DNA from: an uncultured Chryseobacterium sp.
Lineage (GTDB): Bacteria; Bacteroidota; Bacteroidia; Palsa-965
DNA: 53,455 bases
Reading direction: 5' to 3'
NCBI GenBank assembly: GCA_964447465.1
Contig: CAYUTR010000002.1
Span: 1-53,455 of the forward strand
Below, piece by piece: positions 7,746 through 43,798 of this stretch. Under the pieces are notes generated by a model. It did no database searches and was not told the DNA's origin. It was given only the letters and a program-made list of their open reading frames with translations. Positions within the stretch are counted from its first letter, which is position 1. Each line of letters starts with the position of its first letter. The translations under genes and the position numbers were made by a program.

Positions 7746-7761
7746 GACTTAAAAATAACGA

Positions 7762-7795: not shown

Positions 7796-7824
7796 ATTGT
7801 TCTCCAAACCAACGAACGTGCTAT

Positions 7825-13171: not shown

Positions 13172-13172
13172 T

Positions 13173-13907
13173 TTAGGAGTTCATCTTAATTTGAAGTAAT
13201 TGTTTCATGAAGGGGACAACAGCTAAGTCAATCAACTTTTCCGCGTCGCGAGTGCATTCTCTCTCCCTGCCGAGCTTTTCCAATTGCTCGCGTAACACCT
13301 GCTTATACTTACCGTCCATCCAGTCAATCATTGTAGGGAAATCGTAGTTCCCCTTTGATTGTAAAAGAGGATAGATGATTTGGTAAGTTTCAATCTCAGT
13401 TTTCAGTCCTGCACTCATCTTGCGTTCATAATCTTCAAAAAGCAATAGAGCGGCTTTGTGAAGCAGCATTACTTTATTCTTTCCAGATTGCAGGTTAAGG
13501 TCTAATGCATGGAACAATTCGTTGTTCGCAGAAAGAATTGCTAACCGAATTTTCGGTTTGAGATACGCTTCTAGGATTGTGATAAGAGAATTAGCATATA
13601 TGGAATATCGCTTACTCAAGCCTTTCATTTCGTAATCATCATCACCGGAAGAATGTTCGAAGCGAATGATTTTGTTGATTAGGTTTTCCTCTAGTTCCAG
13701 CAATCCAGCTTCAACGCTTTTCAAATCAGAATAAAACAGACCATAGTTGCTTTTGAACTGCATGTTCTTACGGTTGTAAGTCACCGATATATATAAAGGA
13801 TATGCGTCCTTTTCTTTCCCTGTCTTCCCATCAACGATGGAATCAGGTTGGACATTCTTATTCAGGAAAAAATTGACCGTGATCTTTTTCTGTCTGGACT
13901 CGCTCAT
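13173..13907 (-). CDS. Hypothetical protein; N-terminus resembles the Arm-type DNA-binding domain of Bacteroidota integrases, with no catalytic domain
   Basis: 'KITVNFFLNK...DAYPLYISVTYNRKNMQFKS' resembles the 'vtfylrk...g.pIylritvngkr.efs' pattern. It starts 1 nt after the upstream stop. Confidence 0.35.
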   Translation of the reverse strand: MSESRQKKITVNFFLNKNVQPDSIVDGKTGKEKDAYPLYISVTYNRKNMQFKSNYGLFYSDLKSVEAGLLELEENLINKIIRFEHSSGDDDYEMKGLSKRYSIYANSLITILEAYLKPKIRLAILSANNELFHALDLNLQSGKNKVMLLHKAALLLFEDYERKMSAGLKTEIETYQIIYPLLQSKGNYDFPTMIDWMDGKYKQVLREQLEKLGRERECTRDAEKLIDLAVVPFMKQLLQIKMNS

Positions 13908-13922
13908 GGAGCAAATATAGAC

Positions 13923-13956
13923 AATGTTTGTAAACTACATATATCTTACAAACATT
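13923..13956. promoter_or_regulatory. Perfect 11-bp inverted repeat (aatgtttgtaa N12 ttacaaacatt)
   Basis: Lies between the KAP gene stop (14029) and the start of the 13907 gene. It could be an operator or a terminator hairpin. Confidence 0.4.
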
Positions 13957-14028
13957 TAAATATTTCAGTAACTGCCTGATATTCAACAGTTATGCCTCTT
14001 GATGTACTTTCACAGATCTGAAATTTGC

Positions 14029-17000
14029 CTACTTAGTTTGTGCAGAATCCTGATTAATTAATTTAATATCTAATTCATACAAGAGCGCATACGGATTAGA
14101 ATGACCATCAGCATCATCCCATCCAAGCTCCTTCAGACTAAAATTGCGTACCGTAAAAACCAGTTCATTAGGTCCAGTGACTAAAGCACCGGAGTCGAAA
14201 GTGATAGGGACTGGTGCATGAGTTGTTATTTCAGAAGTGAGCACAGGTATTCCATTAATGGATAGTTTGCAAGTATCATCAACCCATAGCTTTAACGTGG
14301 CTTGTTCGATTAGTGTACTGTCTTCAAGTTCTATTTTTTTAATGAATGAATATGTGCCACCTGTGATTGCCTCCTCTTTGGGGATTACTTCTAAGTGCGC
14401 AATAAAATTTGTCTTCATTTTCTTGAACCACACATCTCTTGCAACAATTTCACTGAAACCTGAATGGGTGAAAGTGACGCTATTTTGGTAAGGTGAAACG
14501 GATTCATACTTGTTAACCAAAGTGCTTGAATCACTGACCTCCACAATGCTACCAGGTATCCAATGAATTGACCTGTTTTGCTTTGAAAACAATTTTAGAA
14601 AGTATGTCACTTCAATAGTTTTAGCTGTCCTTTTCAAACCCTTAACATATTGCGAAAGTTGCTCCGGAGAATCATCGAAAATCGATAGCGCAATTGCGTT
14701 TGGAACGTATCGTGAGTCCGGTTCACCTATAACTTCTGGAATAATAATGTTCTCCATAAAGTCCGAAGGTTGCTTTACCAAATAAGGAATGATCTTTTTC
14801 TTCGCGTCGGACATAAACTTTACATGTGAATCAATAATTTCTTCTATACAATTAGTATAGATGGATATTACCTCGGAATACTTTAGTTCTTGTATTACTG
14901 CTTGATCCAAGCATTGAACGACCACTGGCTTAAGAACTGCAGGCTTAACGATTTGACTGAGTTTGCCCGTTTTGTAATAGTGATTTGCTAAAAGCTGACT
15001 ACACACAACAGCTACTTCAACAGGTTTCTCAACTAGAGAGTTCTGAATAAACTTAATGAGCTCCTCCGATTGCGCATCGTGCAGCAGCTTCTCGTTTCGT
15101 TCGAAAAAAGTCTCTACGGTTCCCGCCATCAACAGATCTTCATCTAGCAGAGATGAATAAATCACGATCTTACCTTTTCGTACAAGGTTCTGAGCAGATG
15201 GCGTACGAACCATCTCAGAGACATAATTCTTAAATGAAGACGTTTTTTGTGTGATTAGGACTTTAATCAAATCATTCAGTCCAGCATCCTCTATCGTTTC
15301 CGAGGTTATTCGGTCAGTGGGAGATAATATAGCTGTGAAACTATCAAAGTACCACTCAAAGTAATCTCGATTCCGTATTGCAAATGCTGAGTTGTCTGAA
15401 CTTCTTCGTTCAAATAGCGCCTTAACGATATATTTTGATTCTCGGATCTTATCATTAGCGGAGCCCGTGCCAGGAAAATACATTTCTAAAAAATCCTCGT
15501 TTACACTTATTGCCTCATTAGGAATACTGTGCAAAAAAGATTTAGCACGAAGTAATTCATAAATTCTTGGCGCTTTAAGTTTTATCAACTCCACTTGAAA
15601 CAATTCGTAGCTGTCGATCATGCTATACTTTTGATCTTCCAAAAAGCACTGCATAAATGAGTTCACTAAAATGGTAACGTCTCGTGGATTGGTTACAAAG
15701 TTTGCAAAGTGATCATGCGGGACGTCTTTCTTAAACTCTGTTTGACCTTGTGAGTTGAAACTCCCAATTAATTGTAGATGCCCAAGCAAATCTTCATGCG
15801 AATTTATTCTTTGAACGCAAGTATCTAAAGATCGCTTGGCGGATTGATATCCTGTCGCTTCAACTTTTTGAAAATAATTTAAAAGTGCATCTTGGCATCT
15901 TTTTGTAAAGAGCTCAACTAGAGCTGATCTGGTTGGATGCGGTAAATGAAATTGAACCTGAAATATCTTATTGAGATATTCCGTCGGATTTTCCGAGTTG
16001 ATCAACTTTATCGAATTCTCAATGTAAGCACGGTCATAGCCAATTAAATAAAAGGTGTTTGCGAAATTGGCAGTATTGCGAATGATTCTAAGTACTTCAA
16101 TTACTTCCTTGTTATTCAGTCGATCTAAATCATCAATGATTACTACATATCTATTATTCCCATCTGCTAAAGCAGTATTGAGCTGGGAAATATCAATTGG
16201 CTCGCTTGGAGCAATAAGTTCCAACGGATTTTTCTCAAACCACTTTTTTGATTTCTGGTAAAACTGATTTGCATATGATTTAAACTCGGAGGCAAGCCTT
16301 CCATCAAGTTCACCCTCAAACTGTTTTAAGAACTGAGATTCCAATTCTTCGAGTTGATGTGCCCAAGGAATGAAATACAGTATTTTCGGTTTAGGTAAAC
16401 CTGATTGGGCTGCGCGATTCAAAAGCGACTGGAGGACAAGCTTCACAAAATATGTCTTACCACTTCCCCAGCGACCTACAATTCCGAATCCTACAGATCG
16501 ACTTAGCTTAATTTTTAATATCTCCCCCGCTATGAATTCAGCTTTTGGACTTCGACCGAAGGAATCTTGAACAATTTCCTCTGGATTGTCAAATGGTAAC
16601 TGTTCAATGGAAAATATAGAAGTATTATGAGGCTCTAGGGGTGACGTGATTTTATATGCCTCAATGCGTGAATAAGAAATGTAGAGGCACAGTATAATAA
16701 CGGGTAAAACATAGGGAACTGAAAACTCGTTGAAATCAATTGTATAGAACTGCCAGAAAGGATTTGGTACTATCCAAAAGAAGATACACAACCATGCAAC
16801 GAGGAAACTGGAATAGGTGACCCAACTTGGAAATGATTTTTTAACTATCCTGCTATGAATAATGCTTGCAGCAATTGATGACAGAAGAAATATACCAAAT
16901 CCGATAATGCACAGAATATCTTTTGGGTTAATGAACTTGCCAACAGTTTCGGTTAGAACAATATCTCCGTAATACGCGAGCCCCTTGTGAAAAATGGTAG

Positions 17001-17091
17001 TAACAAGTAGCGTTAACGCTACAAATATTATGTCCTTTCTAACTAAAGATTGATTGTATTTCGCGGGACTAACCTTATCCTTTTTATCCAT
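14029..17091 (-). CDS. Membrane-anchored KAP-family P-loop NTPase with a long C-terminal extension
   Basis: About four N-terminal hydrophobic helices. Walker A 'GIVGRWGSGKTYF' and Walker B 'VVIIDDLDRLNNKEVIEVLRIIRN' are KAP-family hallmarks. The C-terminal ~150 aa looks like a beta-sandwich ('LKLWVDDTCKLSINGIPVL...GPNELVFTVRNF'). Confidence 0.75.
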   Translation of the reverse strand: MDKKDKVSPAKYNQSLVRKDIIFVALTLLVTTIFHKGLAYYGDIVLTETVGKFINPKDILCIIGFGIFLLSSIAASIIHSRIVKKSFPSWVTYSSFLVAWLCIFFWIVPNPFWQFYTIDFNEFSVPYVLPVIILCLYISYSRIEAYKITSPLEPHNTSIFSIEQLPFDNPEEIVQDSFGRSPKAEFIAGEILKIKLSRSVGFGIVGRWGSGKTYFVKLVLQSLLNRAAQSGLPKPKILYFIPWAHQLEELESQFLKQFEGELDGRLASEFKSYANQFYQKSKKWFEKNPLELIAPSEPIDISQLNTALADGNNRYVVIIDDLDRLNNKEVIEVLRIIRNTANFANTFYLIGYDRAYIENSIKLINSENPTEYLNKIFQVQFHLPHPTRSALVELFTKRCQDALLNYFQKVEATGYQSAKRSLDTCVQRINSHEDLLGHLQLIGSFNSQGQTEFKKDVPHDHFANFVTNPRDVTILVNSFMQCFLEDQKYSMIDSYELFQVELIKLKAPRIYELLRAKSFLHSIPNEAISVNEDFLEMYFPGTGSANDKIRESKYIVKALFERRSSDNSAFAIRNRDYFEWYFDSFTAILSPTDRITSETIEDAGLNDLIKVLITQKTSSFKNYVSEMVRTPSAQNLVRKGKIVIYSSLLDEDLLMAGTVETFFERNEKLLHDAQSEELIKFIQNSLVEKPVEVAVVCSQLLANHYYKTGKLSQIVKPAVLKPVVVQCLDQAVIQELKYSEVISIYTNCIEEIIDSHVKFMSDAKKKIIPYLVKQPSDFMENIIIPEVIGEPDSRYVPNAIALSIFDDSPEQLSQYVKGLKRTAKTIEVTYFLKLFSKQNRSIHWIPGSIVEVSDSSTLVNKYESVSPYQNSVTFTHSGFSEIVARDVWFKKMKTNFIAHLEVIPKEEAITGGTYSFIKKIELEDSTLIEQATLKLWVDDTCKLSINGIPVLTSEITTHAPVPITFDSGALVTGPNELVFTVRNFSLKELGWDDADGHSNPYALLYELDIKLINQDSAQTK

Positions 17092-17138
17092 TGATAAGCT
17101 AATTAAACTTTGTAAGTCAAGAATGATAATTCATCGGG

Positions 17139-17999
17139 TCATTTTGGTTCTGTGAATCCCTCTTTAGCTAGTTCAAAGTATTTCTCTGGAGTTTGTGCAA
17201 ACTCCATAATTTCATAATCAAGAGTGCCCCCAATTTGATTCAGAGCATTTAGGTTTAAACAAGTGGCCAGCCATAGTTCTCTCTGAAGATTTTTATTTTT
17301 CCATTGAGGATATATCCACGTAAGTCGGAATGCAATTTCTTCCAGCTGAAACCGGTATGATTGTAAGTAGAAGTATGGAATAACTCCTAAGGTCAGAAGT
17401 ATTGGAAAAATGAACGTGTAAAGGGTGGTCGTTGAGGCGATTTGACTCCAATCGGAGAATATGGCAGTTGAAGAGTAGATTAACATTACAAGTGAAACTA
17501 AGACCAGATAACCAATCGAAAATCTAGAGATTGAACTTGGTTTCTTGTCATTTATCACAACGAGGACAGAACATATTAACAAAGTCGGCCAGAGAATCAT
17601 CTCCCAAAGTAAACTGAAGCTCTTGAGATTTGCCAAAAACTCAATGAACACAGTCACTCCGATTGCTTCTTTAACTAACCGAACAAAGTTCTTTTTGGAT
17701 TTCAGCTTTAACAGATAAATAAATGTAACAGCAGCGAAACCGATAAACCAGAGAAGTGAATCCTTGATAGCCTGATCATGCCAAATTCCAACGACCTTCA
17801 AAGTGACCACAAGAAGAACGGAGATTAGAGTAAGGATTAGGAAAGAAGAAAATACTTTCCACTGGAAAAGGGCTTGAATAAATCCTCTAACAGATTTTCG
17901 CACTTTTTTGCTGGTCGCAGCAATGACTGATAGTAGAAGCAACCAGATCAAGAAAGCTAATTCTCGGTTCGAAAATATTAATTGAGCTTTTTCCCACAT
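17139..17999 (-). CDS. Polytopic inner-membrane protein (about 7-8 predicted TM helices), unknown function
   Basis: 286-aa ORF dominated by hydrophobic ~20-aa stretches. It lies 11 nt after the GTPase gene stop and 47 nt before the KAP gene start. Confidence 0.6.
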   Translation of the reverse strand: MWEKAQLIFSNRELAFLIWLLLLSVIAATSKKVRKSVRGFIQALFQWKVFSSFLILTLISVLLVVTLKVVGIWHDQAIKDSLLWFIGFAAVTFIYLLKLKSKKNFVRLVKEAIGVTVFIEFLANLKSFSLLWEMILWPTLLICSVLVVINDKKPSSISRFSIGYLVLVSLVMLIYSSTAIFSDWSQIASTTTLYTFIFPILLTLGVIPYFYLQSYRFQLEEIAFRLTWIYPQWKNKNLQRELWLATCLNLNALNQIGGTLDYEIMEFAQTPEKYFELAKEGFTEPK

Positions 18000-18010
18000 C
18001 CTATTATCTG

Positions 18011-20299
18011 TTACTTTGCTTCTGAATATTCTTTCAATGCATTCGCTATTCGATCAATTTTATTAGTCCTTCGATTTATTTCTTCTATGCATTCATTAAT
18101 TGCTTTTGACATTACCTGATCTGGTGGCGTCTTGTAGGTATTCAACTCTTTAGTTATTTGACCGAAATAGACGTTTGTCCTGTCGCGAAGCTGTTTAATC
18201 ATATCGCGACATTGCTCGTTAATGTGGCGATTAAAATCACTATAGGTTTGATCAAACACCTTACTATAAGACTTTTCAGCTCGAGACATTATTTGATTAA
18301 TTTGTTTATTTCGCACACCATCTCGTCCTAAGAAAAGACGCTCAAAGAAATCATATAAACCGGTAAATAAATCTCCGATTGAACTAAATATTTCCTCCAG
18401 TAAGTTCAAAGCTTTGGGAATCGATTGAGCAAATGAATCTCGAATCGGTCTGATGACGTCATTAATATTGCTTTTATCTCTCATCTGGTCAAAACTTGGA
18501 TCTGCTAGAAACTCGACTTGCAACAATTCGGTTTTTATCCAATGGTTGAGTTCATTATACAAGTTGTCCAGTTTGTAGTTGACTTCATCATATACCTCGG
18601 TCAAAATGGAGTACGCTTGATTCTCCAGATACTGCCGAATCGCAAAACTATTAGGCAGCGGTGCGTTATCCGAAATCGACGTCAATTGATCTCGCAGATT
18701 CTCCAAACGTTCATTAGCCGATGAATTCAAATATTGTTCTAACCATAGGAGCATTTCAATTCTACTATCTTCACCTACTTGTGAAAGTTTGCCCAATTGT
18801 TTTTGTACACGGTGAATATCACTCTTCAGCTTCTGTGCAACCTCAGCTTCAGTTAACCGAGATCTTAGAATTTTGGATAATCTTAATAAGGCTTCTTTAA
18901 ATTCATAGGTAAGTCCGCCCAAAGTCTGAAGACCATTTCGATTTGTTTTAAGTAAGTTATCCCACAAGATGTCTTCTAAATTTTGAATGTCCAGCGGATG
19001 TTTCTTTTTGATATTTTTTGTTAGATTCTCGAATGAAGCCTTCGCGCTTATATAGATCGGAGGGTGTGGCAAAATTTGATTTAACCCATTTTGTTCTAAC
19101 ACTGAATTTATATATCCTTTAAGCTGCTTGAGACCTTCGCTTGAAATTGTATCAGCTTTATTAAAAACCAAATAAACCCGTTCCATTCTTGGCGCTAGTT
19201 CGCGAAGGTCGTTGAGATGATGTGAATTAATTGAAAAGCCACCATAATTGAATGGCGAGACATCGATTAAGTATATAATTGCATTCGAACTCAGTACTGC
19301 GATCTTGCTGATTCGTCGGGTTTCTTCATTGACGTCATCAAGTCCAGGGACATCGCAATACGCAAGACCCTTCTCCAATAAGTCATTAACGAGATACACC
19401 GTAACTAATTTTACTTTTTCTTTATTCCCTCGATTATATTGTTGATCAACATACTTCTGCAGAAACTTTACAGTCGGATCGCCATTAACAATTGTGCCGT
19501 CGTGAAGCATAACTTCTGCGCGAGGTGGATTGCCCGATTGAATCGTAAATGGTACCCCTGTAGTAGGAAGAATATTGACGGGAGAAATTTCTTGCTTCAT
19601 CAAAGCATTAATCGTTGTACTTTTCCCAGAGCGGCTTGGACCGACGATAGCAATAGTGTAAATTGAATTCAGAGTACGATCCAGAAGTGCGTCGAATGGT
19701 TGTCGCTCTTCAATTAGATTCTTATTAGTTAGATACGCAAGTATATCGGCAATTTCATTTTTGAGAGAAGTTCGAAAGTCAAAGAACGCATTCTTCGCGA
19801 GAGTTTTATTCCCTGTTGAAGTGGAAGAATTACCAGTCAAGTATTCCTCAATTAAAGCAACTTCGCTTTGTGTTAACTCTCGAAACTGATCTAGGGGAAG
19901 CCTTATTTCCTTCATGCCAACCCACTTAGCTCCATATTTTGTCCTCAGCCAATTGTAAAATTTATCATTGAACCACAGATAGTAAAATTTGGAATCAACT
20001 TTCGTTACAAGCATGATTGGTAATCTGGCTTTTTGCCACTTCTCAAACATTGCTGTTTGAACCACTACTGTTTCACCTTTAATTGAAGTGTGAACAGAAA
20101 TTCTCAGTTTCTTACCGGAGACCAAACGGCGATCACTGTTAGATAATGGATTTAATACCTCAACAGTAAAATCATAGCCAGCACTTAATCCACGTCCAGG
20201 TTGAACATTACAGGGCGTAAATATTTTTACGAGCGCATCCAAAATACCCTGTTCGGGGTTCGGCTTTTTGTCAACCACTTTTTTAGACTGCTTTTTCAT
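18011..20299 (-). CDS. Dynamin-like GTPase with an N-terminal DUF4365-like (restriction-endonuclease-fold) domain
   Basis: G1 'GPSRSGKST', G3 'DVPGLDD' and G4 'FNKAD', followed by a long helical C-terminal half. The N-terminal 'GYDFTVEV...KLRISVHTS...LPIMLVTKVDSKFYYLWF' resembles DUF4365. The ORF opens at 20395, but Met at 20299 (MKKQSKK) gives only a 17-nt overlap with the upstream gene. Confidence 0.7.
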   Translation of the reverse strand: MKKQSKKVVDKKPNPEQGILDALVKIFTPCNVQPGRGLSAGYDFTVEVLNPLSNSDRRLVSGKKLRISVHTSIKGETVVVQTAMFEKWQKARLPIMLVTKVDSKFYYLWFNDKFYNWLRTKYGAKWVGMKEIRLPLDQFRELTQSEVALIEEYLTGNSSTSTGNKTLAKNAFFDFRTSLKNEIADILAYLTNKNLIEERQPFDALLDRTLNSIYTIAIVGPSRSGKSTTINALMKQEISPVNILPTTGVPFTIQSGNPPRAEVMLHDGTIVNGDPTVKFLQKYVDQQYNRGNKEKVKLVTVYLVNDLLEKGLAYCDVPGLDDVNEETRRISKIAVLSSNAIIYLIDVSPFNYGGFSINSHHLNDLRELAPRMERVYLVFNKADTISSEGLKQLKGYINSVLEQNGLNQILPHPPIYISAKASFENLTKNIKKKHPLDIQNLEDILWDNLLKTNRNGLQTLGGLTYEFKEALLRLSKILRSRLTEAEVAQKLKSDIHRVQKQLGKLSQVGEDSRIEMLLWLEQYLNSSANERLENLRDQLTSISDNAPLPNSFAIRQYLENQAYSILTEVYDEVNYKLDNLYNELNHWIKTELLQVEFLADPSFDQMRDKSNINDVIRPIRDSFAQSIPKALNLLEEIFSSIGDLFTGLYDFFERLFLGRDGVRNKQINQIMSRAEKSYSKVFDQTYSDFNRHINEQCRDMIKQLRDRTNVYFGQITKELNTYKTPPDQVMSKAINECIEEINRRTNKIDRIANALKEYSEAK

Positions 20300-21353
20300 C
20301 TTTCCAAATTTTTGTCTTGCCATCCTGTGATTTATAGAAACAGCATGAAAACATACCGGACTCTTGCATCGCCTCGAAAGCTTGTGAACGAGCACCGCCT
20401 GACGTTCTCTGATATTTTGACTTATGAATTATATAGTGAAATCCTAATAACTTCCCGTCTTCTGAAAAAATTGTGATGCCATCATTGTTGATAGCAGCTT
20501 CCAGCATGAAAGAAAATTGTTGTAGTCGTGAAAACTGTTCAGGTTTTTTGCCCTCCAGAGCTTTAACAACTAGCGCCCCCAAATCAATAGCATGATCCAA
20601 TTCATATCCGATAAACTCTTCACTGTCAAGTTTCAATTTGGAATTTCCAACCGCCATCAATGTTCCGTGACCTTTATTAATTGCTTTGTAAATTGAATTA
20701 TGCAAAAACGATTTAACCTCCTTCTTTTTTTTGCCCTTCAAGTTTTTTACGACGCTATCGGTCAGCACGGAAACATCATTGTAAGGAATGTTATTGGTGC
20801 TATTAGTAGAAAAGGATAGTATCAACTCCTCTTTGTGCAGGCCATTCAACCTTACATTCTTCTGACCGATATTTCGCAAAGCAATGACTCGAAGATTGCG
20901 GAGGCGGACTTCTTCACTTGAGAAAATCTGTTCAACCAGAGGTGCCGATAAATCATCCTTAACACCATTCAAGATGCCGAATTCAAGCCAACTCGGCGAG
21001 CTGTACTGGTCGACTTCGATGTAAATCACCCACCCACCAATTGCAAGTGGGGCACATGCCTTTAGAATTCTCTCAAATTCAAGTGGAGATGGAGGAGGTA
21101 ATGCGAAATCGCCAATCCTGACCTTGTAAAAGTGTTTGAATTGTCGTGCGAGTTCCTCTATGCTTGATACGACAATAACGTCTGGCATAAGTAGACGTCC
21201 TTCCTCATGATAGTCTGACAAAGAATCGGCAATACACAAAATGCCTTCAGATATTTCAATGGATAAGTACGCGCTCGATTCAAAGAACTTCTCCTTCAAA
21301 AGGAGCATCTCAATTTTCTCACGGTATTGTTCCTTGAATGCAATTGTGGACAT
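20283..21353 (-). CDS. Hypothetical protein with a C-terminal DisA_N/DAC-like (diadenylate-cyclase-fold) region carrying degenerate catalytic motifs
   Basis: 'NKGHGTLMAVGN' (compare GALIVI), 'NNDGITIFSEDGKLLGFHYII' (compare DGAVII) and 'TSGGARSQAFEAMQESG' (compare GTRHRAA) occur in the order and spacing seen in DAC domains. This is a by-eye call only. Confidence 0.4.
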   Translation of the reverse strand: MSTIAFKEQYREKIEMLLLKEKFFESSAYLSIEISEGILCIADSLSDYHEEGRLLMPDVIVVSSIEELARQFKHFYKVRIGDFALPPPSPLEFERILKACAPLAIGGWVIYIEVDQYSSPSWLEFGILNGVKDDLSAPLVEQIFSSEEVRLRNLRVIALRNIGQKNVRLNGLHKEELILSFSTNSTNNIPYNDVSVLTDSVVKNLKGKKKKEVKSFLHNSIYKAINKGHGTLMAVGNSKLKLDSEEFIGYELDHAIDLGALVVKALEGKKPEQFSRLQQFSFMLEAAINNDGITIFSEDGKLLGFHYIIHKSKYQRTSGGARSQAFEAMQESGMFSCCFYKSQDGKTKIWKDEKAV

Positions 21354-21451
21354 CGTTTACTAAAGCAAGATATTGGAGAAGTGGATTTAGGGCGGCGCTG
21401 AATAGCGAATTTAGCCCATAAAGGCAGGATTTTGAATGAAAAGCTGACTTT

Positions 21452-21471
21452 TATCCGTTTGAAAACGGATA
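21452..21471. terminator. Short hairpin (tatccgttt / aaacggata) between the HNH-motif gene and the DAC-like gene
   Basis: Perfect 9-nt complementary arms with a minimal loop and no clear U-tract. It may separate the transcription units. Confidence 0.3.
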
Positions 21472-21522
21472 GTTACTAACAACGTGTTTAAATTGGAGCG
21501 TAAGTATTGCAATCATATACAA

Positions 21523-22311
21523 TTATTCTTCCTCACAATTGAATCTGAGTTCCTCGCTATCCTCTGTAACCTTCCAACGAACAGGGAATCCTCCATTAAT
21601 AAGTTCCATGACTAAGTTGCTGGGTGGAGTAATGCCAGAAGGTTTGAAGGAAACGTAAACATCCACCTTTTCATAAAACGTCATTTTCAATGCTCTGAGA
21701 TTGAACTGATCCTGTTCTCCCATTCTATAGGAAAAGACTTGAGGATTCTCTCCTTTTGCTAACCAATTTTTTCCTTCCGCTTCAAATGCAGTTTCACAAA
21801 GCCGAGCAAGATTTCGCGTGTTCTCAGTTTGATACTTTAGGAAACCCAAAATCACCTGAATCTCACCAGAAAATGGTGTGCTAAACTCATGGAAATAAAT
21901 TCCACATGCTATATTCTTAAAGCACTTTTCTAGTCGGTCGTAATTCGGTTTGCCTAAGAACACAGGAAACTTATTGCCGTTACCGTTGTCTAAAACTATA
22001 TGTTTTGCGTTGCGCACGACCTCACTCATAAATTGGTCGCCCTTGCGATCGAAAATGCGTCGCGTTTTTGAATGAAGATGTAGGAATGCTACTGCGTTAC
22101 TTCCTACGTTGGCAGAAAGAGCAGCAATTAAGAACTCATCGTCGTCAGATTTTCCTGTATTATGCAGTTCGCAAGACGGCACCGTTATCAAGTTCCTGCG
22201 GAAATTTTGTCCGAGACCGATGTCTTTCTCAGCTGGAAATAAACCACGGGCAGGAACATGCTCGCGGCTTGTTGCTAGTTGATTGCATATATAACATCTT
22301 TCAGAGTTCAT
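21523..22311 (-). CDS. HNH-motif protein (putative nuclease), 262 aa
   Basis: 'CYICNQLATSREHVPARGLFP...VPSCELHNTGKSDDDEF' follows a CxxC...EH...P...C..HN arrangement, like HNH/His-Me finger nucleases. Confidence 0.5.
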   Translation of the reverse strand: MNSERCYICNQLATSREHVPARGLFPAEKDIGLGQNFRRNLITVPSCELHNTGKSDDDEFLIAALSANVGSNAVAFLHLHSKTRRIFDRKGDQFMSEVVRNAKHIVLDNGNGNKFPVFLGKPNYDRLEKCFKNIACGIYFHEFSTPFSGEIQVILGFLKYQTENTRNLARLCETAFEAEGKNWLAKGENPQVFSYRMGEQDQFNLRALKMTFYEKVDVYVSFKPSGITPPSNLVMELINGGFPVRWKVTEDSEELRFNCEEE

Positions 22312-22426: not shown

Positions 22427-22636
22427 ATGAAACATATCCTCCTTAAGTATCTGGTTGAATTTACGCGCAACCGTTTGGACAATCCAGAAGGTTTCAAATA
22501 TGACTCTACAGAAGGAATGTGGGTAGACGAATTAGATGTGCAGCACGTTTTAGTTAAGTCAGTCGGGCCAGGAAAGCCGATTAGAGGAACTAAAAAAAAT
22601 GACGTGGAAACCGGCGAAGATATGAAAGGACAGTAA
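22427..22636 (+). CDS. Graspetide (ATP-grasp-modified RiPP) precursor peptide 1, 69 aa
   Basis: Paralogue of the next ORF, alignable without gaps. The conserved C-terminal core is 'IRGTKKNDVETGEDMKGQ', rich in Thr/Lys/Asp/Glu. It lies immediately upstream of an MdnC-like ATP-grasp gene. Confidence 0.7.
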   Translation: MKHILLKYLVEFTRNRLDNPEGFKYDSTEGMWVDELDVQHVLVKSVGPGKPIRGTKKNDVETGEDMKGQ

Positions 22637-22638
22637 AA

Positions 22639-22848
22639 ATGACACATGCGCTATTAAAACATCTGGTACACTTCAATAGGAAAATAATTTCTATTCCCGA
22701 AGGGTTTCGGTACAATCGTGAACTTGGATATTGGGCTGATGAGAATGCGCTGACGTCACCACTTGTTAAACAGCGTGATCTACTCGCTCTAATAAGAGGT
22801 AGTAAAAAGGAAGATGTAGAAACAGGTGAAGATCTCAAAGGAAAATAG
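22639..22848 (+). CDS. Graspetide precursor peptide 2, 69 aa
   Basis: Shares 'LLK.LV.F.R', 'PEGF.Y' and 'IRG(T/S)KK.DVETGED.KG' with precursor 1. It starts 2 nt after precursor 1's stop, and its own stop abuts the ATP-grasp ATG. Confidence 0.7.
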   Translation: MTHALLKHLVHFNRKIISIPEGFRYNRELGYWADENALTSPLVKQRDLLALIRGSKKEDVETGEDLKGK

Positions 22849-23808
22849 ATGAATGAGATTTATCCATCTGTATTAATAGTATCAACTAAATTTGATTTCG
22901 GCACTGATCACGTTGCGTACCAGTTAAAAGAAAAGGGGGCTTCCTATTGGAGATTGAATAGAGATGAGCTTCCAGAGTACACAGTATATTTTGATCCATC
23001 ATGTTCAAAATTATGTCTGATAGGTGAATCCATTAAGGTTATCATTACTCCTGAAACTTTAAACTCCATCTATTATCGTGCTCCGACATTTTTGCGTGAA
23101 ATACAACAAAACGCAGATAGTGATCAACAACTTGAGAAGAGTCAATGGGCCGCATTCATTAGGGCATTATCCGTGTATCAAAACATACGGTGGCTAAATA
23201 ATCCTGTCAGTACATACTATGCGGAAATGAAACCAGTGCAGCTTACTCTTGCGCATAAGATCGGCTTCAAAATTCCTGTGACGCTAATTGGAAATGTTGG
23301 CGATCAGGAGGTGATAAAAAGTATTCCTGGGGAGCAGATCGTGCTTAAAACGGTAGATACTGGTTATGTGACAGGTGCCGAAAAGGATGGATTTATCTAC
23401 ACCAACTTTATTGACAAGTCGTCACTAAATACAGAAAACACCAAGTCGATTCCATTTATCCTACAAGAAGCCCTAGTGCCCAAAATTGATATTCGGGTTA
23501 CGGTGGTTGGTGAAACGCTATTTTCTGTTGCAATAAAATCAAGTGAGCCAATTGATGGGGATTGGAGATTGAGGAAGAATGATTTGGATTATGAAATTAT
23601 TGAGCTTCCCACCCAAGTCAAAAGGAAATGCAATGATTTGATGAAATTACTCGGATTAAATTTTGGTGGTATTGATTTGGTTCTTCACAATGGGGAATAT
23701 TACTTTATTGAAATTAATCCGACAGGTGAATGGGATTGGCTCCAGCACCATACTGGTTGTGCCATTGACATGGCATTAGCTGAAGAGTTATGTAGGACTA
23801 CAGTATGA
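22849..23808 (+). CDS. ATP-grasp ribosomal-peptide maturase (MdnC/MvdD-like macrocyclase)
   Basis: Co-linear with microviridin MdnC: 'VLIVSTKFDFGTDHV', 'DIRVTVVGETLFSVAI...DGDWR', 'LGLNFGGIDLVL..GEYYFIEINPTGEWDWL'. Confidence 0.8.
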   Translation: MNEIYPSVLIVSTKFDFGTDHVAYQLKEKGASYWRLNRDELPEYTVYFDPSCSKLCLIGESIKVIITPETLNSIYYRAPTFLREIQQNADSDQQLEKSQWAAFIRALSVYQNIRWLNNPVSTYYAEMKPVQLTLAHKIGFKIPVTLIGNVGDQEVIKSIPGEQIVLKTVDTGYVTGAEKDGFIYTNFIDKSSLNTENTKSIPFILQEALVPKIDIRVTVVGETLFSVAIKSSEPIDGDWRLRKNDLDYEIIELPTQVKRKCNDLMKLLGLNFGGIDLVLHNGEYYFIEINPTGEWDWLQHHTGCAIDMALAEELCRTTV

Positions 23809-24584
23809 AAAAGATTTTTTCGATCCTTCTTTCTTTTTGTAACCAACACATTTGGGTTACATTTTATTCGTGGCGCGCGAACAAAATTATTTGGCGCCAA
23901 ATACAAGAGTTAGAGGCAAAGGAGTTCAATGTAAATTTATTTGCAAATAAATTTGAGGATGCGAAGAAAACGGTTGAGGAATTTCATCAAGAACATCTAG
24001 AGAGAAAGAAAATTCTGGAGGAAAAAGCGCGATCTCTTCTTCTGATTGTCACCGCAAGTGCAACGCTGACGACGGGAATATTGACTTTTGTTTACAATTT
24101 GGAAGGTCAACATCTATTGTTACTCACAACCCTGATTTTAGGATATCTGTTTTTGATTCTTTGTATCATAGATATACTCGCTACGTTGAACACCACGCCT
24201 TATTACTATATCAGTGACCGCGATTATTTCAGGACTTCAGAAAATTCAACTGACTTGGAATATGACAACATTAACAACAAGATATCTTACATAGAGCTTT
24301 TATATCGAAACTCTCAATTAAATTCTAAGAAAAATTTGATTAAGCAAAATCAACTGTACGCCGGATTTCAGAATTTAAGAAATGGCGTTTTGCTTATTTG
24401 CATTTTTTTCATGCTCTCAATTGTACAGAAAATGGCTGGGCAGGAAACTCCAGTACCAAACAATTGTTCTAGTGGAAATTGTCACATCCGAGCGGGCATC
24501 AATGATAGCACCACATTAGGTAATACGAATTTCCCTTTAGAGCACTATGGGATCGTCGAATTGATTCCTCAAGTGGAAAATTAG
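23805..24584 (+). CDS. Membrane protein (3-4 TM helices), overlaps the ATP-grasp gene by 4 nt (ATGA)
   Basis: Hydrophobic segments 'LLLIVTASATLTTGILTFVY', 'LLLLTTLILGYLFLILCIIDILATL' and 'VLLICIFFMLSIV'. No recognisable transporter motif. Confidence 0.5.
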   Translation: MKKIFSILLSFCNQHIWVTFYSWRANKIIWRQIQELEAKEFNVNLFANKFEDAKKTVEEFHQEHLERKKILEEKARSLLLIVTASATLTTGILTFVYNLEGQHLLLLTTLILGYLFLILCIIDILATLNTTPYYYISDRDYFRTSENSTDLEYDNINNKISYIELLYRNSQLNSKKNLIKQNQLYAGFQNLRNGVLLICIFFMLSIVQKMAGQETPVPNNCSSGNCHIRAGINDSTTLGNTNFPLEHYGIVELIPQVEN

Positions 24585-24627: not shown

Positions 24628-25293
24628 ATGGATTTGAACGAACCATACCAAATTGGCTATATGCCTTTCAGAATTTTAGAAGGGTTGAAATTCTATTATA
24701 AAAAGCTGGACGAAATAGATATGACGATCTATTTGGAACCAAACTTTCCGATTAAGCGTGACGAAGTTCTCATGGTTATTGATTTTCTGTCTACTCTACC
24801 GGACACGTCACCAGCTAGAAATATTTGCCATAGCCACCCTGCTCTGCAATTGGGCATGGAATCAATGGATTCATATTCCGACATGTCTAATGATCAACTT
24901 AGTCAATCCAAACTGCGAATCCTTGATTTCGTTGGACACTTTTTGACCTCAGCAACGAATCTTATGGTTCGCGACAAAATGATTGAAATCGAGAGCACTA
25001 TTCTTCCACTATCGTATAGTGATAAAATAGTATTTCTGGTTAAGCGAAAACACTATTACTCAAAACACGTAGGATCATTCCCACGAAGATTTGTGAAGGA
25101 GATCGGGGAGTATTGTGACGCATTAATTCTCGAAAATAAAGAGCTGGTAAACGCCCTTTCCGGCTATGACAACCAAACTCAACAGGCAAACGTTGTCGTG
25201 CATAGTGACGAGCAGACAGGAGGCATAACTGCGAATACAGTAAATATTTACAATGGAGGATTCGCAGCGAATCCTGATGGAAAGATCGATTAA
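24628..25293 (+). CDS. Hypothetical protein, 221 aa, with a C-terminal 'QTGGITANTVNI' motif
   Basis: ORF with no recognised domain. It shares this short motif with the two neighbouring minus-strand ORFs. Confidence 0.5.
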   Translation: MDLNEPYQIGYMPFRILEGLKFYYKKLDEIDMTIYLEPNFPIKRDEVLMVIDFLSTLPDTSPARNICHSHPALQLGMESMDSYSDMSNDQLSQSKLRILDFVGHFLTSATNLMVRDKMIEIESTILPLSYSDKIVFLVKRKHYYSKHVGSFPRRFVKEIGEYCDALILENKELVNALSGYDNQTQQANVVVHSDEQTGGITANTVNIYNGGFAANPDGKID

Positions 25294-25343
25294 AAAGAAT
25301 ATTCACTGGTGATATCAATGGCGTTGTGTTCTTCGCGCATCTT

Positions 25344-25709
25344 TTATCCTCTGTTAGTGCACACCTGAATCTCTATCAACGCTCCATTGTCTTTCTCTAC
25401 GGTCTGGGCATCGTAAACGGGGCTACCATACGCAACTTGATCAATGTGCTGTGCAACATTGCGTCCCGTAGATTGCAAGTACGCTCTTATTTCAATTGCC
25501 GCATTCATTGCCTCAGGATCTCCCATAATTGCGGTTACGCCAAACCGACGTGCATTAGGGAATTGTTTTAATGCAGTCTCAATACCTTGCTTCCCTGCCT
25601 CATCCAATTTACGTTCCCGCTTCCCAATGTTGACGGTGTGCGCTGTAATTCCGCCACTTTGATTATGGCTCGTGATATGAATATCACCCTTGTTCTCTTG
25701 ATCGTTCAT
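25344..25709 (-). CDS. Hypothetical protein (~122 aa) with an N-terminal 'QSGGITAHTVNI' motif
   Basis: The ORF opens at 25796. Met at 25709 (MNDQENKGDIHITSHNQSGGITAHTVNI) avoids overlap with the upstream ORF and mirrors its N-terminal layout. Confidence 0.5.
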   Translation of the reverse strand: MNDQENKGDIHITSHNQSGGITAHTVNIGKRERKLDEAGKQGIETALKQFPNARRFGVTAIMGDPEAMNAAIEIRAYLQSTGRNVAQHIDQVAYGSPVYDAQTVEKDNGALIEIQVCTNRG

Positions 25710-25719
25710 TCTTATTTGG

Positions 25720-25989
25720 TTATTTATTAATAGCATTGACGATGGAGTCTTTATTTCCAGGTTCTGCTGGTTTGAACCATTCGCGTTTATTAGCAAATAG
25801 AACGAACAGTCCTATTGCCAGCGGTATTAGAATCTTCCACCACCAATTTTTTAACATCTCAATGAAGCCAGATGTTTGAGGAGGTTGCGGAGGGTTATTA
25901 TTCGTGGTGTTATTTTGTTCAGCAACATTAACCGTGTGGGCTGTTATTCCTCCAGTTTGTCCTTTAGATTCGATTTTAATTTTCCCCAT
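25720..25989 (-). CDS. Small membrane-anchored protein (89 aa) with an N-terminal 'QTGGITAHTVNV' motif
   Basis: The motif is followed by an Asn/Pro-rich linker and one TM helix ('WWWKILIPLAIGLFVLFA'). Confidence 0.5.
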   Translation of the reverse strand: MGKIKIESKGQTGGITAHTVNVAEQNNTTNNNPPQPPQTSGFIEMLKNWWWKILIPLAIGLFVLFANKREWFKPAEPGNKDSIVNAINK

Positions 25990-28556: not shown

Positions 28557-31500
28557 TTATGGGCCATATCGTCCTCTTCCCTGAACTCCAACTTCGTAAT
28601 ATAATGGGCCACCGTTTATACCATTACCATAAGCTGCATGATATCCGTGAGCCATTCTCGTTGTGTCTCCACTATATCCTCCACCCTCCCAAGATAGGGT
28701 TTGATAGTTTGGTTCATAAGCGATTAATTTATATTTTCTGTCAACCATAGTCCAATTAACCTGGACTTGTACAGGCGTACTAACTGCCATCAACTTAGTG
28801 CGTGTTCCATATCGCCTTTGACCATCATCATCTAAGTAAAAACCAGGATATTCAACCCAACCCCAATTCTCCTGCATAACTTGTGTCGTCCCGGTCCCGC
28901 TGCGCGTTGTCACCTCAACTCCCGTCCATATAGTCTGAAATCCATAGTTGACACCATCCTCATCAACACTAGCGTTTCCATACCATTCACCATCTAAGCT
29001 CAAATCTCCTTTGTGAGTATTGAGGTTATAAGTGTACCCAAGCCCTACTTCGGGACCGTTATTTTTGGAGGAGTTAAGACCTGTGCCTGCACCAACATTA
29101 AACTGGTCGACAATTTCAGGATCGGGCCCGAGAAGATTGAATTTATCGTAAGGGTCGTATGAATTTACTGCAAAACGTGGTGTATTAACATTGTAGTTTA
29201 GATTGTCTTTACCCGTAGATTCCAACACGGCAGGATTCGTACCACCGCCTCCAACGTCAACCATCGGCATTTGACAATGAACAAAACCATTCTCGTATCC
29301 CGTAACAAAATAATAAGCACCATCGGCCATCCGAACATATCCTGAAATGGTTTCACCCAAATATTTTTCCCCATTTTGCACATCACCCTGACTATGCACA
29401 TTTTCATCAAACCGTACTTTCCCATCAGTTCCTTTAATCCACCCCTCTGCGTCAAGTCCACTTGGATCAACACAGTAAATCGGATTATTGGCGAAAGACG
29501 AGTAAGGGCTTTCCCACGGTTTCACAATAGGATCTTTGCTCATCCATCTTCCAATTCTTGGATCGTATTGACGATACTCCGTCGTATAACTCAACGCTTC
29601 CCCATTCTTAATTTCCGGATCAGATTCCATCCCGTTAAACGCGTACCTGTAGCTGCCACCCGCACGTCCCGTCTGCGGCGCGCCAAACACATAATAATCT
29701 GAGTAAGACTGTACGTCTGCGACATACCATTCCACTTCCGTCGGTGATCCAACTGAAGAGTAGAGTAGGCGCTTATCACTAATCGTAACCAGCACGTTTC
29801 CTAAGTGGTTAGATACCTCGTACTGTTTATATCCAATCGTCCTCGTATAATGCGTCTTGTTGTACGCGCCAGTACTTGCAGTAGGTGTCGCACTATTGAA
29901 CTTTCCGCTTGTGAGTGTCGTGGTGAAATCCTGATAGTAATCACTCTCATCATCCGCATGTCTTATGCCTGCACGTCCACTTCCATAAACACCGTTCTCC
30001 TCGAGATCAATTTTCACTTTGTAATTCCCACTCGTGAGATCTTCAAAGCTCTGTTTGTACACTCCCATCAGGTTTCCACCCGCATCGTATACATACCAGT
30101 AATAAATCCAGTTGGTCTGGTCATCGATTCCGGCTCCACTTGCCTTGTGCGGTTTTACAATTTTGCATAGGCGCTGCTGTCCTGCTGTGTAGAGGAATTC
30201 TACATCTGCGTCACCATATTCAGTACTCGTGCACGCATTCGTGTTGTTTGCCTGGTCTTTTCGTACGGCTTTTACTTTGCCATATGGATTCCACTCTATA
30301 TCTGTAATTCTTTCACTGGCATCATCAGTCATTTCTCCGATCACATCGTACACATAATTTCCACCTGTGCCCTGGTTATCCAGATCATCGCTGTAACTGC
30401 AACTGCCTTGTCCATCCATGATCTTTAACAGGATGTTGCTGTTGTCTTTGTACTTGTAACTCAACGAATCTGACTTCACCGCCATACCTCCTCCACCTAC
30501 ATTTCCAGCAAAGCGGTTTACGTTAGTAATGTTTCCGTTCCAGTCGTACCAGAATTCTTCTTCGAAGCGATCGTTTTGCGTATAGCTGGTTTGCCACTCG
30601 TTGTTAGTGAGTGCTGTGCCATCCATATGAAAGGTTGTGCTCCACTTTATGCGATACAGCTGATCGTACCTGAATGCTCGTCCCTGTACTTCTGTTCCGT
30701 ATTCGTCTGCATCGAGCATAGATGTAGTCATACCTGCAATGTTACCGTTGTACTGGTTGGAAATTCCGGTTCCATACGCGCTCGTGCTCATGTCCGCTTC
30801 AAATGCTGGTGTTGCATTTACACTCGTGTAGTCTGCACTTATCAAACCTACAGCCTGATAGTAACTCAACGTAAATCCGGCGGCATCTGTTCCAATGTTT
30901 CTGTTCAGATTGTTTGCGTCATCCACTCCGTCCTGACCCAAATCCCGCTCCTGAAATTCTCCATTATCACCAATGGTATTTCTGTTCATGCCTTTCAACC
31001 ATCCGTTGATTGTGAACGCATAGTCCATAGCCTGCACGGTCTTATCGCCAATCTCAACCCGTCCAACTCCTCCGGTAGCATAGTAAAACTGCTTTTGTTC
31101 CTTTTCCCAGTGTACGTTGTCTCTGGAAGTGTAAACTACTTTCAGTCGGTTGTCGGCGTCGTACTCGTACTTGTGGTGAAACTCGTCGCGTTCTCCGTCC
31201 TGATAATGAACCGCGTTTACATTTCCACTAATGAGATCGTACTCGTATGTCGTGCTCTTGATATTCTGATTATGCGTTTTCAACGGCGGAGTTTCCTGAA
31301 CAACCTGTTTTACATTTCCATGTATATCATAGCTGTAGAAATACGCACTCAAATAATCGGGCTGTGAACTTGCACTGAAATTGTACAGGTCATATTGTAC
31401 CGTTGGATCATCATCGTACACAACTGCTGTTACACGGTTTCTCGTATTTTCTAGTCCGCTTGGGAATGCTGCAGTTGCGTCACTCGAGATAGAAGGGTCT

Positions 31501-35972: not shown

Positions 35973-35989
35973 GGGCAGGTTCCTCTTTC

Positions 35990-36682: not shown

Positions 36683-36721
36683 ATTTCTGAATTTATTTCT
36701 ATTTCTGGTAGTGATTTGGAG

Positions 36722-36817: not shown

Positions 36818-36832
36818 GACTTTACCAAACGC

Positions 36833-43186: not shown

Positions 43187-43188
43187 GG

Positions 43189-43797: not shown

Positions 43798-43798
43798 G

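What the first reader, a model, noticed from the sequence alone, without database searches (positions are those of the whole stretch)
22427..24584. Graspetide (microviridin-type) RiPP cluster with two tandem precursors and an unfamiliar core 'IRG(T/S)KK(N/E)DVETGED(M/L)KG'
Two 69-aa paralogous ORFs align without gaps. They are translationally coupled to each other and to an MdnC/MvdD-like ATP-grasp ligase (TAA-aa-ATG, then TAG directly followed by ATG). The conserved C-terminal core is rich in Thr/Ser, Lys and Asp/Glu, the donor and acceptor residues for omega-ester and omega-amide crosslinks. It does not match the microviridin 'TxKYPSDWEEY' core or the plesiocin 'TTxxxxEE' core that I know. 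The conserved leader elements 'LLK.LV.F' and 'PEGF.Y' may be the recognition sequence. A membrane protein overlaps the ligase gene by 4 nt and may act in export or immunity. The cluster sits in a mobile or defence island.
Basis: partly seen in the sequence, partly recalled or inferred. Interest (0 to 1): 0.7.

Follow-up and report, generated by a model that had tools for sequence, protein, structure and literature searches.

The report
Known group 7 (marinomonasin-type) graspetide cluster
This is a real gene cluster for a side-chain cross-linked ribosomal peptide, but its "unfamiliar" core belongs to the published group 7 (marinomonasin) graspetide family, so it is a new member of a known kind; only the role of its conserved membrane protein is still open.

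Summary
Two gap-free 69-aa paralogs (51% identical), an ATP-grasp ligase and a membrane protein lie at 22427-24584, tightly coupled as described.

It is a graspetide cluster, but the core is not new. The C-terminus [S/T]KKxDxETGEDxKG and the leader (HILL...Y...G.W) match precursor "cluster171" of Makarova et al. 2022. That paper maps the cluster to group 7 of Lee et al. 2020.

Group 7 has 433 catalogued clusters and two characterised members:
- Marinomonasin (Marinomonas fungiae). Its ligase is 44% identical to ours, and its precursor ends ...ATKKCDVETGEDQKGE.
- Gra-3 (Bacillus sp. S66), which was triply dehydrated in E. coli.

What I add:
- The core is invariant in 94/94 precursors from bacteria and archaea.
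- The third gene, a 3-TM helical protein with no Pfam or PDB match, follows the ligase in 75/79 loci. HMM-based co-occurrence surveys cannot see it.
- The module carries no protease or transporter.
- It often sits in variable islands rich in defence or mobile-element genes, as it does here. This is suggestive and has no control set.

Verdict: new member of a known kind, low interest, with one modest open question about gene 3 and the biological role.

The parts
22427..22636 (+). Precursor A (69 aa): leader residues 1-54, core T55-K-K-N-D-V-E-T-G-E-D-M-K-G-Q69
   Evidence: ORF. Homologs with an invariant C-terminus. Matches Makarova cluster171 / group 7. AF2: leader pLDDT 74-84 with a beta-hairpin at 23-34; core disordered.
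22589..22633 (+). Core peptide of precursor A (TKKNDVETGEDMKGQ). Predicted donors are T55, K56 and K57 (plus K67). Predicted acceptors are D59, E61, E64 and D65.
   Evidence: S/T, K, K, D, E, G, E, D and K are each conserved in 94/94 precursors. Three dehydrations were measured in the homolog Gra-3.
22639..22848 (+). Precursor B (69 aa), a paralog of A with core S55-K-K-E-D-V-E-T-G-E-D-L-K-G-K69
   Evidence: 51% identical to A with no gaps. It pairs with the second precursor of locus L002 (58%) better than with A, so the duplication is old. Tandem precursors are common in Bacteroidota loci.
22801..22845 (+). Core peptide of precursor B (SKKEDVETGEDLKGK)
   Evidence: Same invariant pattern as A. 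It differs from A at the donor residue 55 (Ser for Thr, both seen in the family), at the two variable positions x58 and x66, and at the last residue.
22849..23808 (+). Group 7 graspetide synthetase (ATP-grasp ligase, 319 aa)
   Evidence: TIGR04187 1e-55, MvdC 4e-42, MvdD 1e-35. PDB sequence matches: MdnB/MdnC at 3e-25, then CdnC and PsnB. More than 900 homologs. 44% identical to the M. fungiae ligase. ATP-grasp residues are invariant in the family alignment, e.g. K167, D276, E288, N290.
23805..24584 (+). Conserved third gene: a 259-aa helical membrane protein with 3 predicted TM segments. Function unknown; candidate exporter, scaffold or immunity protein.
   Evidence: 4-nt overlap with the ligase gene. 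A family HMM hits directly downstream of the ligase in 75/79 loci. 115 family representatives. AF2 pLDDT 85.6, pTM 0.76. No Pfam, NCBIfam, PADLOC or PHROG hit. No fold match in PDB or BFVD. Homologous to M. fungiae gene 3 (hhalign probability 96%).

Best explanation
A three-component group 7 (marinomonasin-type) graspetide biosynthetic cluster with a duplicated precursor gene.

Proposed mechanism:
1. Each 69-aa precursor has a ~54-residue leader and a 15-residue C-terminal core. The leader carries the conserved elements H-I-L-L, P-x-G-x-x-Y and Y-x4-G-x-W.
2. The ATP-grasp ligase binds the leader.
3. The ligase phosphorylates Asp/Glu side-chain carboxylates of the core (D59, E61, E64, D65) with ATP.
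4. The Ser/Thr55 hydroxyl and the Lys56/Lys57 amines attack the acyl phosphates. This gives a compact tricyclic peptide, by analogy one omega-ester and two isopeptide bonds.
5. The translationally coupled 3-TM protein most likely handles the product at the membrane (export, scaffold or self-protection).
6. A protease encoded elsewhere would remove the leader.
7. The product is most likely a protease inhibitor, like other characterised graspetides. The two variable core positions (x58, x66) would tune specificity between products A and B.

Shown here: gene content, family membership and conservation.
Shown by others for homologs: three dehydrations.
Inferred: ring topology in this member, the role of gene 3, leader removal and bioactivity.
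For: - Ligase belongs to the RiPP ATP-grasp maturases.
- Precursor core and leader match published cluster171 / group 7.
- Marinomonasin is assigned to group 7.
- The M. fungiae locus L064 has the same precursor-ligase-gene 3 trio: ligase 44% identical, precursor ending ATKKCDVETGEDQKGE, gene 3 homologous at 96% probability.
- Gra-3 comes from a 3-gene group 7 cluster and gave a 3-fold dehydrated C-terminal fragment in E. coli.
- 78/80 ligase homologs have the precursor upstream, and 75/79 have gene 3 downstream.
- Donor and acceptor residues are invariant in 94/94 precursors.
- The precursor model shows a semi-structured leader and a disordered core.
- Stop/start coupling of all four genes.
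Against: - No experiment was done on this member.
- The ligase is below the curated cutoffs of every NCBIfam maturase model (189 bits against 350 for TIGR04187), so there is no dedicated HMM for group 7.
- The conserved module holds no leader peptidase, GG cleavage site (10/94) or recognisable transporter. Secretion and maturation are therefore assumed.
- No bioactivity of marinomonasin or Gra-3 was found in the literature available to me.
- The ring topology (1 ester + 2 isopeptides) is from my memory of Kaweewan et al. 2021, which is not in the library.
Confidence: 0.9

Rival explanations
1. The trio is not a secreted natural-product pathway. It is an intracellular conflict module (phage defence, abortive infection or addiction system). 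The cross-linked peptide, or the ligase's choice of substrate, controls the 3-TM protein acting as a membrane effector, or inhibits an invader's protease.
For: - The module is self-contained and highly mobile. It occurs in Bacteroidota, Proteobacteria, Firmicutes, Acidobacteriota, Chloroflexi, CPR and methanogenic or other archaea, with different flanks at every locus.
- It occurs on plasmids.
- Neighbours often include R-M, McrB, HNH, TIR, PLD, Septu/Gabija-like ATPases, AbiEii, OLD-TOPRIM and integrases. The same holds in the window.
- There is no protease or transporter in the module.
- The core is invariant across two domains of life, which is unusual for diffusible RiPPs.
- Gene 3 is strictly linked.
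Against: - No PADLOC model hits any of the three proteins.
- No paper linking group 7 to defence was found.
- The flank survey has no control set. It also contains housekeeping genes, with roughly 12% defence or mobile-element-like proteins by my count.
- RiPP and bacteriocin clusters are also commonly cargo of mobile elements.
- Gene 3 has no similarity to known pore-forming effectors.
Confidence: 0.12
2. Gene 3 is an obligatory partner or scaffold of the ligase rather than an exporter or immunity protein. It would be needed for stability or activity, like MirC for the rosaritide synthetase, or like the membrane scaffold role proposed for MdnE in microviridin biosynthesis.
For: - 96% co-occurrence with the ligase and a 4-nt translational coupling.
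- By topology, both conserved soluble segments (residues 1-75 and about 130-190) are predicted on the same side of the membrane, which I take to be cytoplasmic.
- Partner-dependent graspetide synthetases now have a precedent.
- The Gra-3 construct that worked included the third gene.
Against: - The ligase is a complete ATP-grasp with a pre-ATP-grasp leader-binding domain.
- Whether marinomonasin production needed gene 3 is unknown to me.
- The topology is predicted only.
Confidence: 0.25
3. The small ORFs are chance ORFs, and the ATP-grasp is a RimK-like ligase that adds amino acids to another protein.
For: Public annotations call the homologs 'RimK-like'. There are weak Pfam RimK and ATP-grasp_3 hits.
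Against: - The RimK family model scores 27 bits against a cutoff of 143, while the RiPP maturase models score 123-189 bits.
- The small ORF is conserved upstream in 78/80 genomes with an invariant C-terminus.
- Homologs are experimentally cross-linked.
Confidence: 0.01

Closest known systems
Marinomonasin cluster of Marinomonas fungiae (group 7 graspetide; Kaweewan, Nakagawa, Kodani 2021)
   Same: - Same three-gene architecture of precursor, ATP-grasp and 3-TM protein.
- Ligase 44% identical.
- The precursor shares the leader elements and the core TKKxDVETGEDxKG.
- Gene 3 is homologous.
- Assigned to group 7.
   Different: - The window has two tandem, diverged precursors (N or E at x58, Ser instead of Thr in B).
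- The host is different. I infer Bacteroidota only from the Bacteroidota gliding and type IX secretion domains (SprB, Por_Secre_tail, PorP_SprF) next to the closest homolog locus.
- The flanking genes are different.
- Leader sequences are only about 35-40% identical.
Gra-3 of Bacillus sp. S66 (group 7; Ayikpoe et al. 2022, PMC9576775)
   Same: - Three-gene cluster of precursor, ligase and hypothetical protein.
- The precursor is 39-41% identical to ours, with core STKKHDVERGEDLK.
- Three dehydrations were shown by MS.
   Different: - The Bacillus subgroup has Arg instead of Thr at position 62.
- It ends two residues earlier, with no terminal Gly-X.
Microviridins (group 1; MdnA/MdnB/MdnC)
   Same: - Same enzyme superfamily and chemistry: leader-guided ATP-grasp omega-ester and omega-amide formation.
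- MdnB/MdnC are the best solved-structure matches (3e-25).
- The product is tricyclic.
   Different: - Different core (TxKYPSDWEEY) and leader (PFFARFL).
- Two dedicated ligases instead of one.
- GNAT and ABC transporter genes are present, and there is no gene 3 family member.
Thuringinin-like multi-core graspetide clusters (groups 3/5/6) with their 'uncharacterized membrane protein' (Makarova cluster 18)
   Same: - Group 7 ligases lie directly after the 'Branch_Thuringinin' rows in the row order of Makarova's Table S1 excerpt.
- Two phage-borne relatives with multi-repeat T..T....E/D cores are followed by a gene 3-like membrane protein (hhalign probability about 88%).
- Makarova et al. suggest such membrane proteins act in peptide transport.
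   Different: - Those cores are repeated and internal, whereas ours is single and C-terminal.
- Ligase identity is only about 32%.
- I could not verify which Makarova cluster (18 or 40) gene 3 belongs to.

Membership tests
Graspetides (ATP-grasp RiPPs) | A MvdC/MvdD/TgmB-type ATP-grasp ligase encoded next to the precursor | tested here: met
   TIGR04187 1e-55, MvdC 4e-42, MvdD 1e-35 over the full length. PDB matches to MdnB/C, AMdnB, CdnC and PsnB. The precursors end 0-2 nt before the next start codon.
Graspetides (ATP-grasp RiPPs) | A precursor with a leader plus a core containing Ser/Thr/Lys donors and Asp/Glu acceptors | tested here: met
   Cores TKKNDVETGEDMKGQ and SKKEDVETGEDLKGK. Donors and acceptors are invariant in 94/94 homologs.
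Graspetides (ATP-grasp RiPPs) | Side chain-to-side chain omega-ester or omega-amide macrocycles actually installed | not testable with these tools
   Shown only for the homologs: Gra-3 with 3 dehydrations, and marinomonasin (listed as characterised).
Group 7 graspetides (marinomonasin type; Lee 2020 / Ramesh 2021 numbering) | Core consensus [S/T]KKxDxExGEDxK at the extreme C-terminus | tested here: met
   Both window precursors match. The Makarova cluster171 consensus is 'TKKxDVETGEDQKGE', flagged gr_07. The M. fungiae and Gra-3 cores are the same.
Group 7 graspetides (marinomonasin type; Lee 2020 / Ramesh 2021 numbering) | Leader consensus ..HILL..A....PE...YD...G.W.. | tested here: met
   Window A reads MKHILL...PEGFKYDSTEGMW. 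Family frequencies: H-h-h-h 86/94, P.G..Y 61/94, [YF]x...G.W 94/94.
Group 7 graspetides (marinomonasin type; Lee 2020 / Ramesh 2021 numbering) | The ligase groups with group 7 synthetases (the published criterion is an SSN at alignment score 70) | tested here: inconclusive
   The published SSN could not be rerun. As proxies, the ligase is 36-49% identical to 80 ligases, 78 of which have the group 7 precursor upstream, including M. fungiae at 44%. MdnB/MdnC match far more weakly (92 and 90 bits). This strongly suggests membership but is not the formal test.
Microviridins (group 1) | Core TxKYPSDWEEY, leader PFFARFL, and two ligases (MdnB plus MdnC) | tested here: not met
   Neither motif is present in either precursor. 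There is a single ligase. The MvdC and MvdD equivalog scores of 144 and 123 bits are far below their cutoffs of 425 and 475.
Known anti-phage defence systems (PADLOC-DB v2) | Any component matches a defence-system HMM | tested here: not met
   No hit for precursors A and B, the ligase, gene 3 or the next ORF at E <= 0.01. Only the neighbouring dynamin-like gene hits LeoBC/LeoA.
RimK alpha-L-glutamate ligases | Scores above the family cutoff | tested here: not met
   TIGR00768 scores 27 bits against a cutoff of 143. Pfam RimK scores 20.2 against 21.

The most novel reading that the evidence does not exclude
Group 7 'graspetide clusters' may be a mobile three-gene conflict module rather than a conventional secreted natural-product pathway. 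The module would consist of an invariant cross-linkable peptide, its ligase and a strictly linked 3-TM protein of a new fold family. It would act inside or at the membrane of the producing cell, for example in phage defence, abortive infection or addiction. This would explain four observations: the defence-island, plasmid and prophage-like contexts; the absence of a protease and transporter; the presence in archaea and CPR bacteria; and a core frozen across two domains of life.
Probability: 0.12. Interest if true: 0.7.

Novelty: new member of a known kind. Interest (0 to 1): 0.25.

Why it matters
As a graspetide cluster it adds little. The family (group 7, 433 catalogued clusters) is published and has two experimentally modified members.

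It has modest value as a Bacteroidota example with two old, diverged precursor paralogs. These differ at the variable core positions and would be a convenient natural pair for testing what those positions do.

The more useful by-product concerns the whole group. The third gene is as conserved as the precursor (75/79 loci). It has no Pfam model and no structural relative, so HMM-based co-occurrence analyses have not seen it. The module also carries no maturation or export genes and repeatedly sits among defence and mobile-element genes.

I found no reported bioactivity or native role for any group 7 product. Settling what gene 3 does would clarify the biology of several hundred clusters.

Tried and rejected
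- **Defence-system identity.** PADLOC found nothing for the trio, and PHROGs found nothing for gene 3.
- **Gene 3 annotation.** Pfam and NCBIfam gave only noise. Foldseek of a confident model gave only generic long-helix matches against PDB (best E = 0.29) and BFVD (best E = 0.089). I looked for a SLATT-like or TolQ-like reading and found no support.
- **Word-based homolog search for gene 3.** It found only one relative. The exhaustive HMMER search was needed.
- **Defence-island enrichment.** I scanned 140 flanking proteins from 35 loci. Defence and mobile-element families are frequent but mixed with housekeeping genes. I had no control set, so I do not claim enrichment.
- **Iyer et al. 2009 and Kaweewan et al. 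2021.** Neither is in the library. The marinomonasin ring topology therefore rests on my memory.
- **Phage records.** Two phage records carry a related ligase (32% identity), but with different multi-repeat cores. They are not group 7.
- **Promoter and terminator scan.** It was no better than shuffled sequence, and the sigma-70 consensus is probably not applicable to this host.
- **The P. gingivalis ICE graspetide preprint.** It concerns the grasp-with-SPASM group, not this one.
Full report
**1. The observation**

- precursor A, 22427-22636
- precursor B, 22639-22848
- ATP-grasp ligase, 22849-23808
- a 259-aa protein, 23805-24584

A and B align over all 69 residues without gaps (51% identity, E = 2e-22). 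The junctions read TAA-aa-ATG, TAG-ATG and an ATGA overlap. The 259-aa protein has three strongly hydrophobic segments.

The region lies in a low-GC stretch (0.37-0.40 against 0.44-0.48). That stretch also holds two tyrosine recombinases, a D12 DNA methyltransferase, a KAP NTPase and a dynamin/LeoBC-like GTPase.

**2. The ligase**

It matches the RiPP ATP-grasp maturase models over their full length: TIGR04187 1e-55, MvdC 4e-42, MvdD 1e-35. It is below every curated cutoff, and the RimK model scores only 27 bits.

By sequence it matches the solved graspetide synthetases MdnB/MdnC (3e-25), AMdnB, CdnC and PsnB.

It has more than 900 homologs at E < 1e-5. The best-scoring ones listed are about 45-50% identical and mostly annotated 'RimK-like' or hypothetical.

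**3. The precursor family is already published**

A search with precursor A found only nine relatives. All share an invariant C-terminus, TKKxD(V/I)ETGEDxKG.

Searching the supplements of Makarova et al. 2022 (PMC8939145) for this string found their precursor cluster171. Its consensus is '..HILL..A....PE...YD...G.W....P.TKKxDVETGEDQKGE'. Members come from Klebsiella, Morganella, Vibrio, Caulobacter, Agrobacterium, Rhizobium, Blautia, Bacillus, Desulfitobacterium, Sphingobacterium, Methanoculleus, Methanolacinia and Haloarcula.

Their Table S1 flags it as known and equal to group 7 of Lee et al. 2020. The ligases were already present in the Iyer 2009 and Lee 2020 sets.

Two experimental members exist:
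- Ayikpoe et al. 2022 (PMC9576775) produced Gra-3 from a three-gene group 7 cluster of Bacillus sp. S66 (precursor, ligase, hypothetical protein). The precursor is ...ERGFWLDTHTSQPLVQNPRRPLPSTKKHDVERGEDLK. [quoted passage not shown]
- The supplement of Carter et al. 2026 (PMC13097080) lists marinomonasin (M. fungiae, CUB04732.1) as the characterised group 7 member and counts 433 group 7 clusters.

**4. Independent confirmation from genomes**

A scan of one genome per species returned 80 loci. One of them is Marinomonas fungiae JCM 18476 (L064), whose ligase is 44% identical to ours.

- In 78 of 80 loci, a small ORF ending in the group 7 motif lies directly upstream of the ligase.
- The M. fungiae precursor ends ...GVQATKKCDVETGEDQKGE.
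- Two or three tandem precursors are common in Bacteroidota.

Over 94 precursors, the residues S/T55, K56, K57, D59, E61, G63, E64, D65 and K67 are each conserved in 94/94. The peptide always ends four residues after E-D, or two in the Bacillus subgroup. Positions 58 and 66 are hypervariable.

The window's A and B pair with the A and B copies of locus L002 (62% and 58%) better than with each other (51%). The duplication therefore predates that split.

The general elements are H-h-h-h (86/94), P.G..Y (61/94) and [Y/F]x...G.W (94/94). A GG site is rare, at 10/94.

AlphaFold gives a semi-ordered leader with a beta-hairpin across Y25...W32 and a disordered core. That fits a RiPP precursor.

**5. 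The third gene**

In every locus I inspected by hand, the ligase is followed on the same strand by a 200-300-aa protein, usually overlapping by 4 nt.

- An exhaustive HMMER search found 115 family representatives, covering about residues 5-210.
- An HMM built from 50 of them hits directly downstream of the ligase in 75 of 79 loci. One of the four misses has no sequence left downstream.
- The family has an N-terminal amphipathic segment, then 'ERKKxIEDKAKS' running into TM1, then TM2, then 'LYKxxxLN...N..YA.F..IRNG' running into TM3. K74, N173 and N182 are invariant, and L79, R192 and N193 nearly so.
- The AlphaFold model is confident (pLDDT 85.6, pTM 0.76).
- It has no meaningful match in the PDB or BFVD, and no Pfam, NCBIfam, PADLOC or PHROG hit.
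- The M. fungiae gene 3 is homologous (96% probability).

The published co-occurrence table for group 7 is HMM-based. It lists GNAT (46%) and LysR (26%) neighbours but cannot see this protein.

Makarova et al. mention uncharacterised membrane proteins with graspetide loci. They suggest transport for cluster 18 and leave cluster 40 unclear. I could not verify which cluster, if either, is gene 3.

**6. Context**

The flanks differ at every locus and often hold defence or mobile-element genes:
- McrB plus methyltransferases, HNH/ScoMcrA, MmeI-type and DpnII R-M, a CAP12-type TIR protein and PLD/DUF4365.
- Among 140 nearest neighbours from 35 further loci: Septu/Gabija-like ATPases, type I R-M subunits, C5 methylases, AbiEii, OLD-TOPRIM and integrases, alongside ordinary metabolic genes.

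The module also occurs on Rhizobium, Agrobacterium and Martelella plasmids.

Two phage records carry a 32%-identical ligase with different multi-repeat cores and a probably homologous membrane protein.

I had no control set, so I treat the defence association as suggestive only. RiPP clusters are also common cargo of mobile elements. No paper linking this group to defence was found.

**7. Mechanism**

The best-supported reading is leader-guided ATP-dependent activation of core Asp/Glu side chains, attacked by Thr/Ser55 and Lys56/57, giving a tricyclic C-terminal peptide.
- Three dehydrations were measured in Gra-3.
- One ester plus two isopeptide bonds in marinomonasin is from my memory of Kaweewan et al. 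2021, which I could not read.

Gene 3 is most likely an export, scaffold or immunity component. Leader removal must rely on a protease encoded elsewhere. Protease inhibition is the default expectation by analogy with other graspetides. No bioactivity for group 7 was found in the literature I could search.

**8. Verdict**

The cluster is real and correctly recognised as a graspetide cluster. It is a new member of a known kind and of low interest.

The residual open question applies to the whole group rather than this locus. It concerns the role of the strictly conserved, unannotated 3-TM protein, and whether the mobile, defence-island-associated, protease- and transporter-less module has an intracellular conflict function. 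I rate that reading at about 12%.

Noticed in passing
window 24628-25989: Three neighbouring ORFs just downstream of the cluster share a short motif, (Q/S)(T/S)GGITA(H/N)TVN(I/V). They are 24628-25293 (+), 25344-25796 (-) and 25720-25989 (-). The first two, which were the ones scanned, have no Pfam hit. This may be an unrecognised small-protein family in the island.
   Followed up: no
window 730-5627: A Y-family polymerase (IMS/ImuB-like, 730-2022) is followed by a DnaE2-like Pol III alpha (2406-5627). This is an error-prone 'mutasome' cassette, and it lies next to two tandem tyrosine recombinases at 7825-9634.
   Followed up: partly
window 9784-22311 (- strand): Island cargo upstream of the cluster:
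- a D12 N6-adenine methyltransferase (11528-13171) with a 599-aa partner that has no Pfam hit;
- a 1020-aa KAP-family P-loop NTPase (14029-17091);
- a 794-aa dynamin-like GTPase hitting PADLOC LeoBC/LeoA (18011-20395);
- four ORFs of 244-356 aa with no family hit.
These are candidate defence genes and were not analysed further.
   Followed up: partly
window 28557-47787 (- strand): Three giant ORFs (2471, 2117 and 1136 aa) have no Pfam hit at E <= 1e-5. GC skew is strongly negative across them.
   Followed up: no
L090 (Leptospira phage LalZ_80412, 3679-5580) and L091 (human-gut 'Bacteriophage sp.' contig, 3428-6105): Phage-borne graspetide-like clusters. A 106-aa or 184-aa precursor with repeated T.T....E.DD-type cores is followed by an ATP-grasp ligase (32% identical to ours) and then a gene 3-like membrane protein (hhalign probability about 88%).
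   Followed up: partly
L021 (Pedobacter sp. MAG, 7358-7988): Three tandem group 7 precursors precede one ligase. Their C-terminal tails are atypical (...GEDQK...GEDQK...GEDKKYK) and lack the usual terminal Gly-X.
   Followed up: no
L010, L027, L029, L077 and L009: The complete trio, with the invariant core, occurs in archaeal assemblies (Methanobacteriota, Methanobrevibacter, an uncultured archaeon, and a hit named Nitrososphaera by one source). It also occurs in a Saccharibacteria (CPR) MAG, L088. This is an unusually wide spread for one RiPP core.
   Followed up: partly
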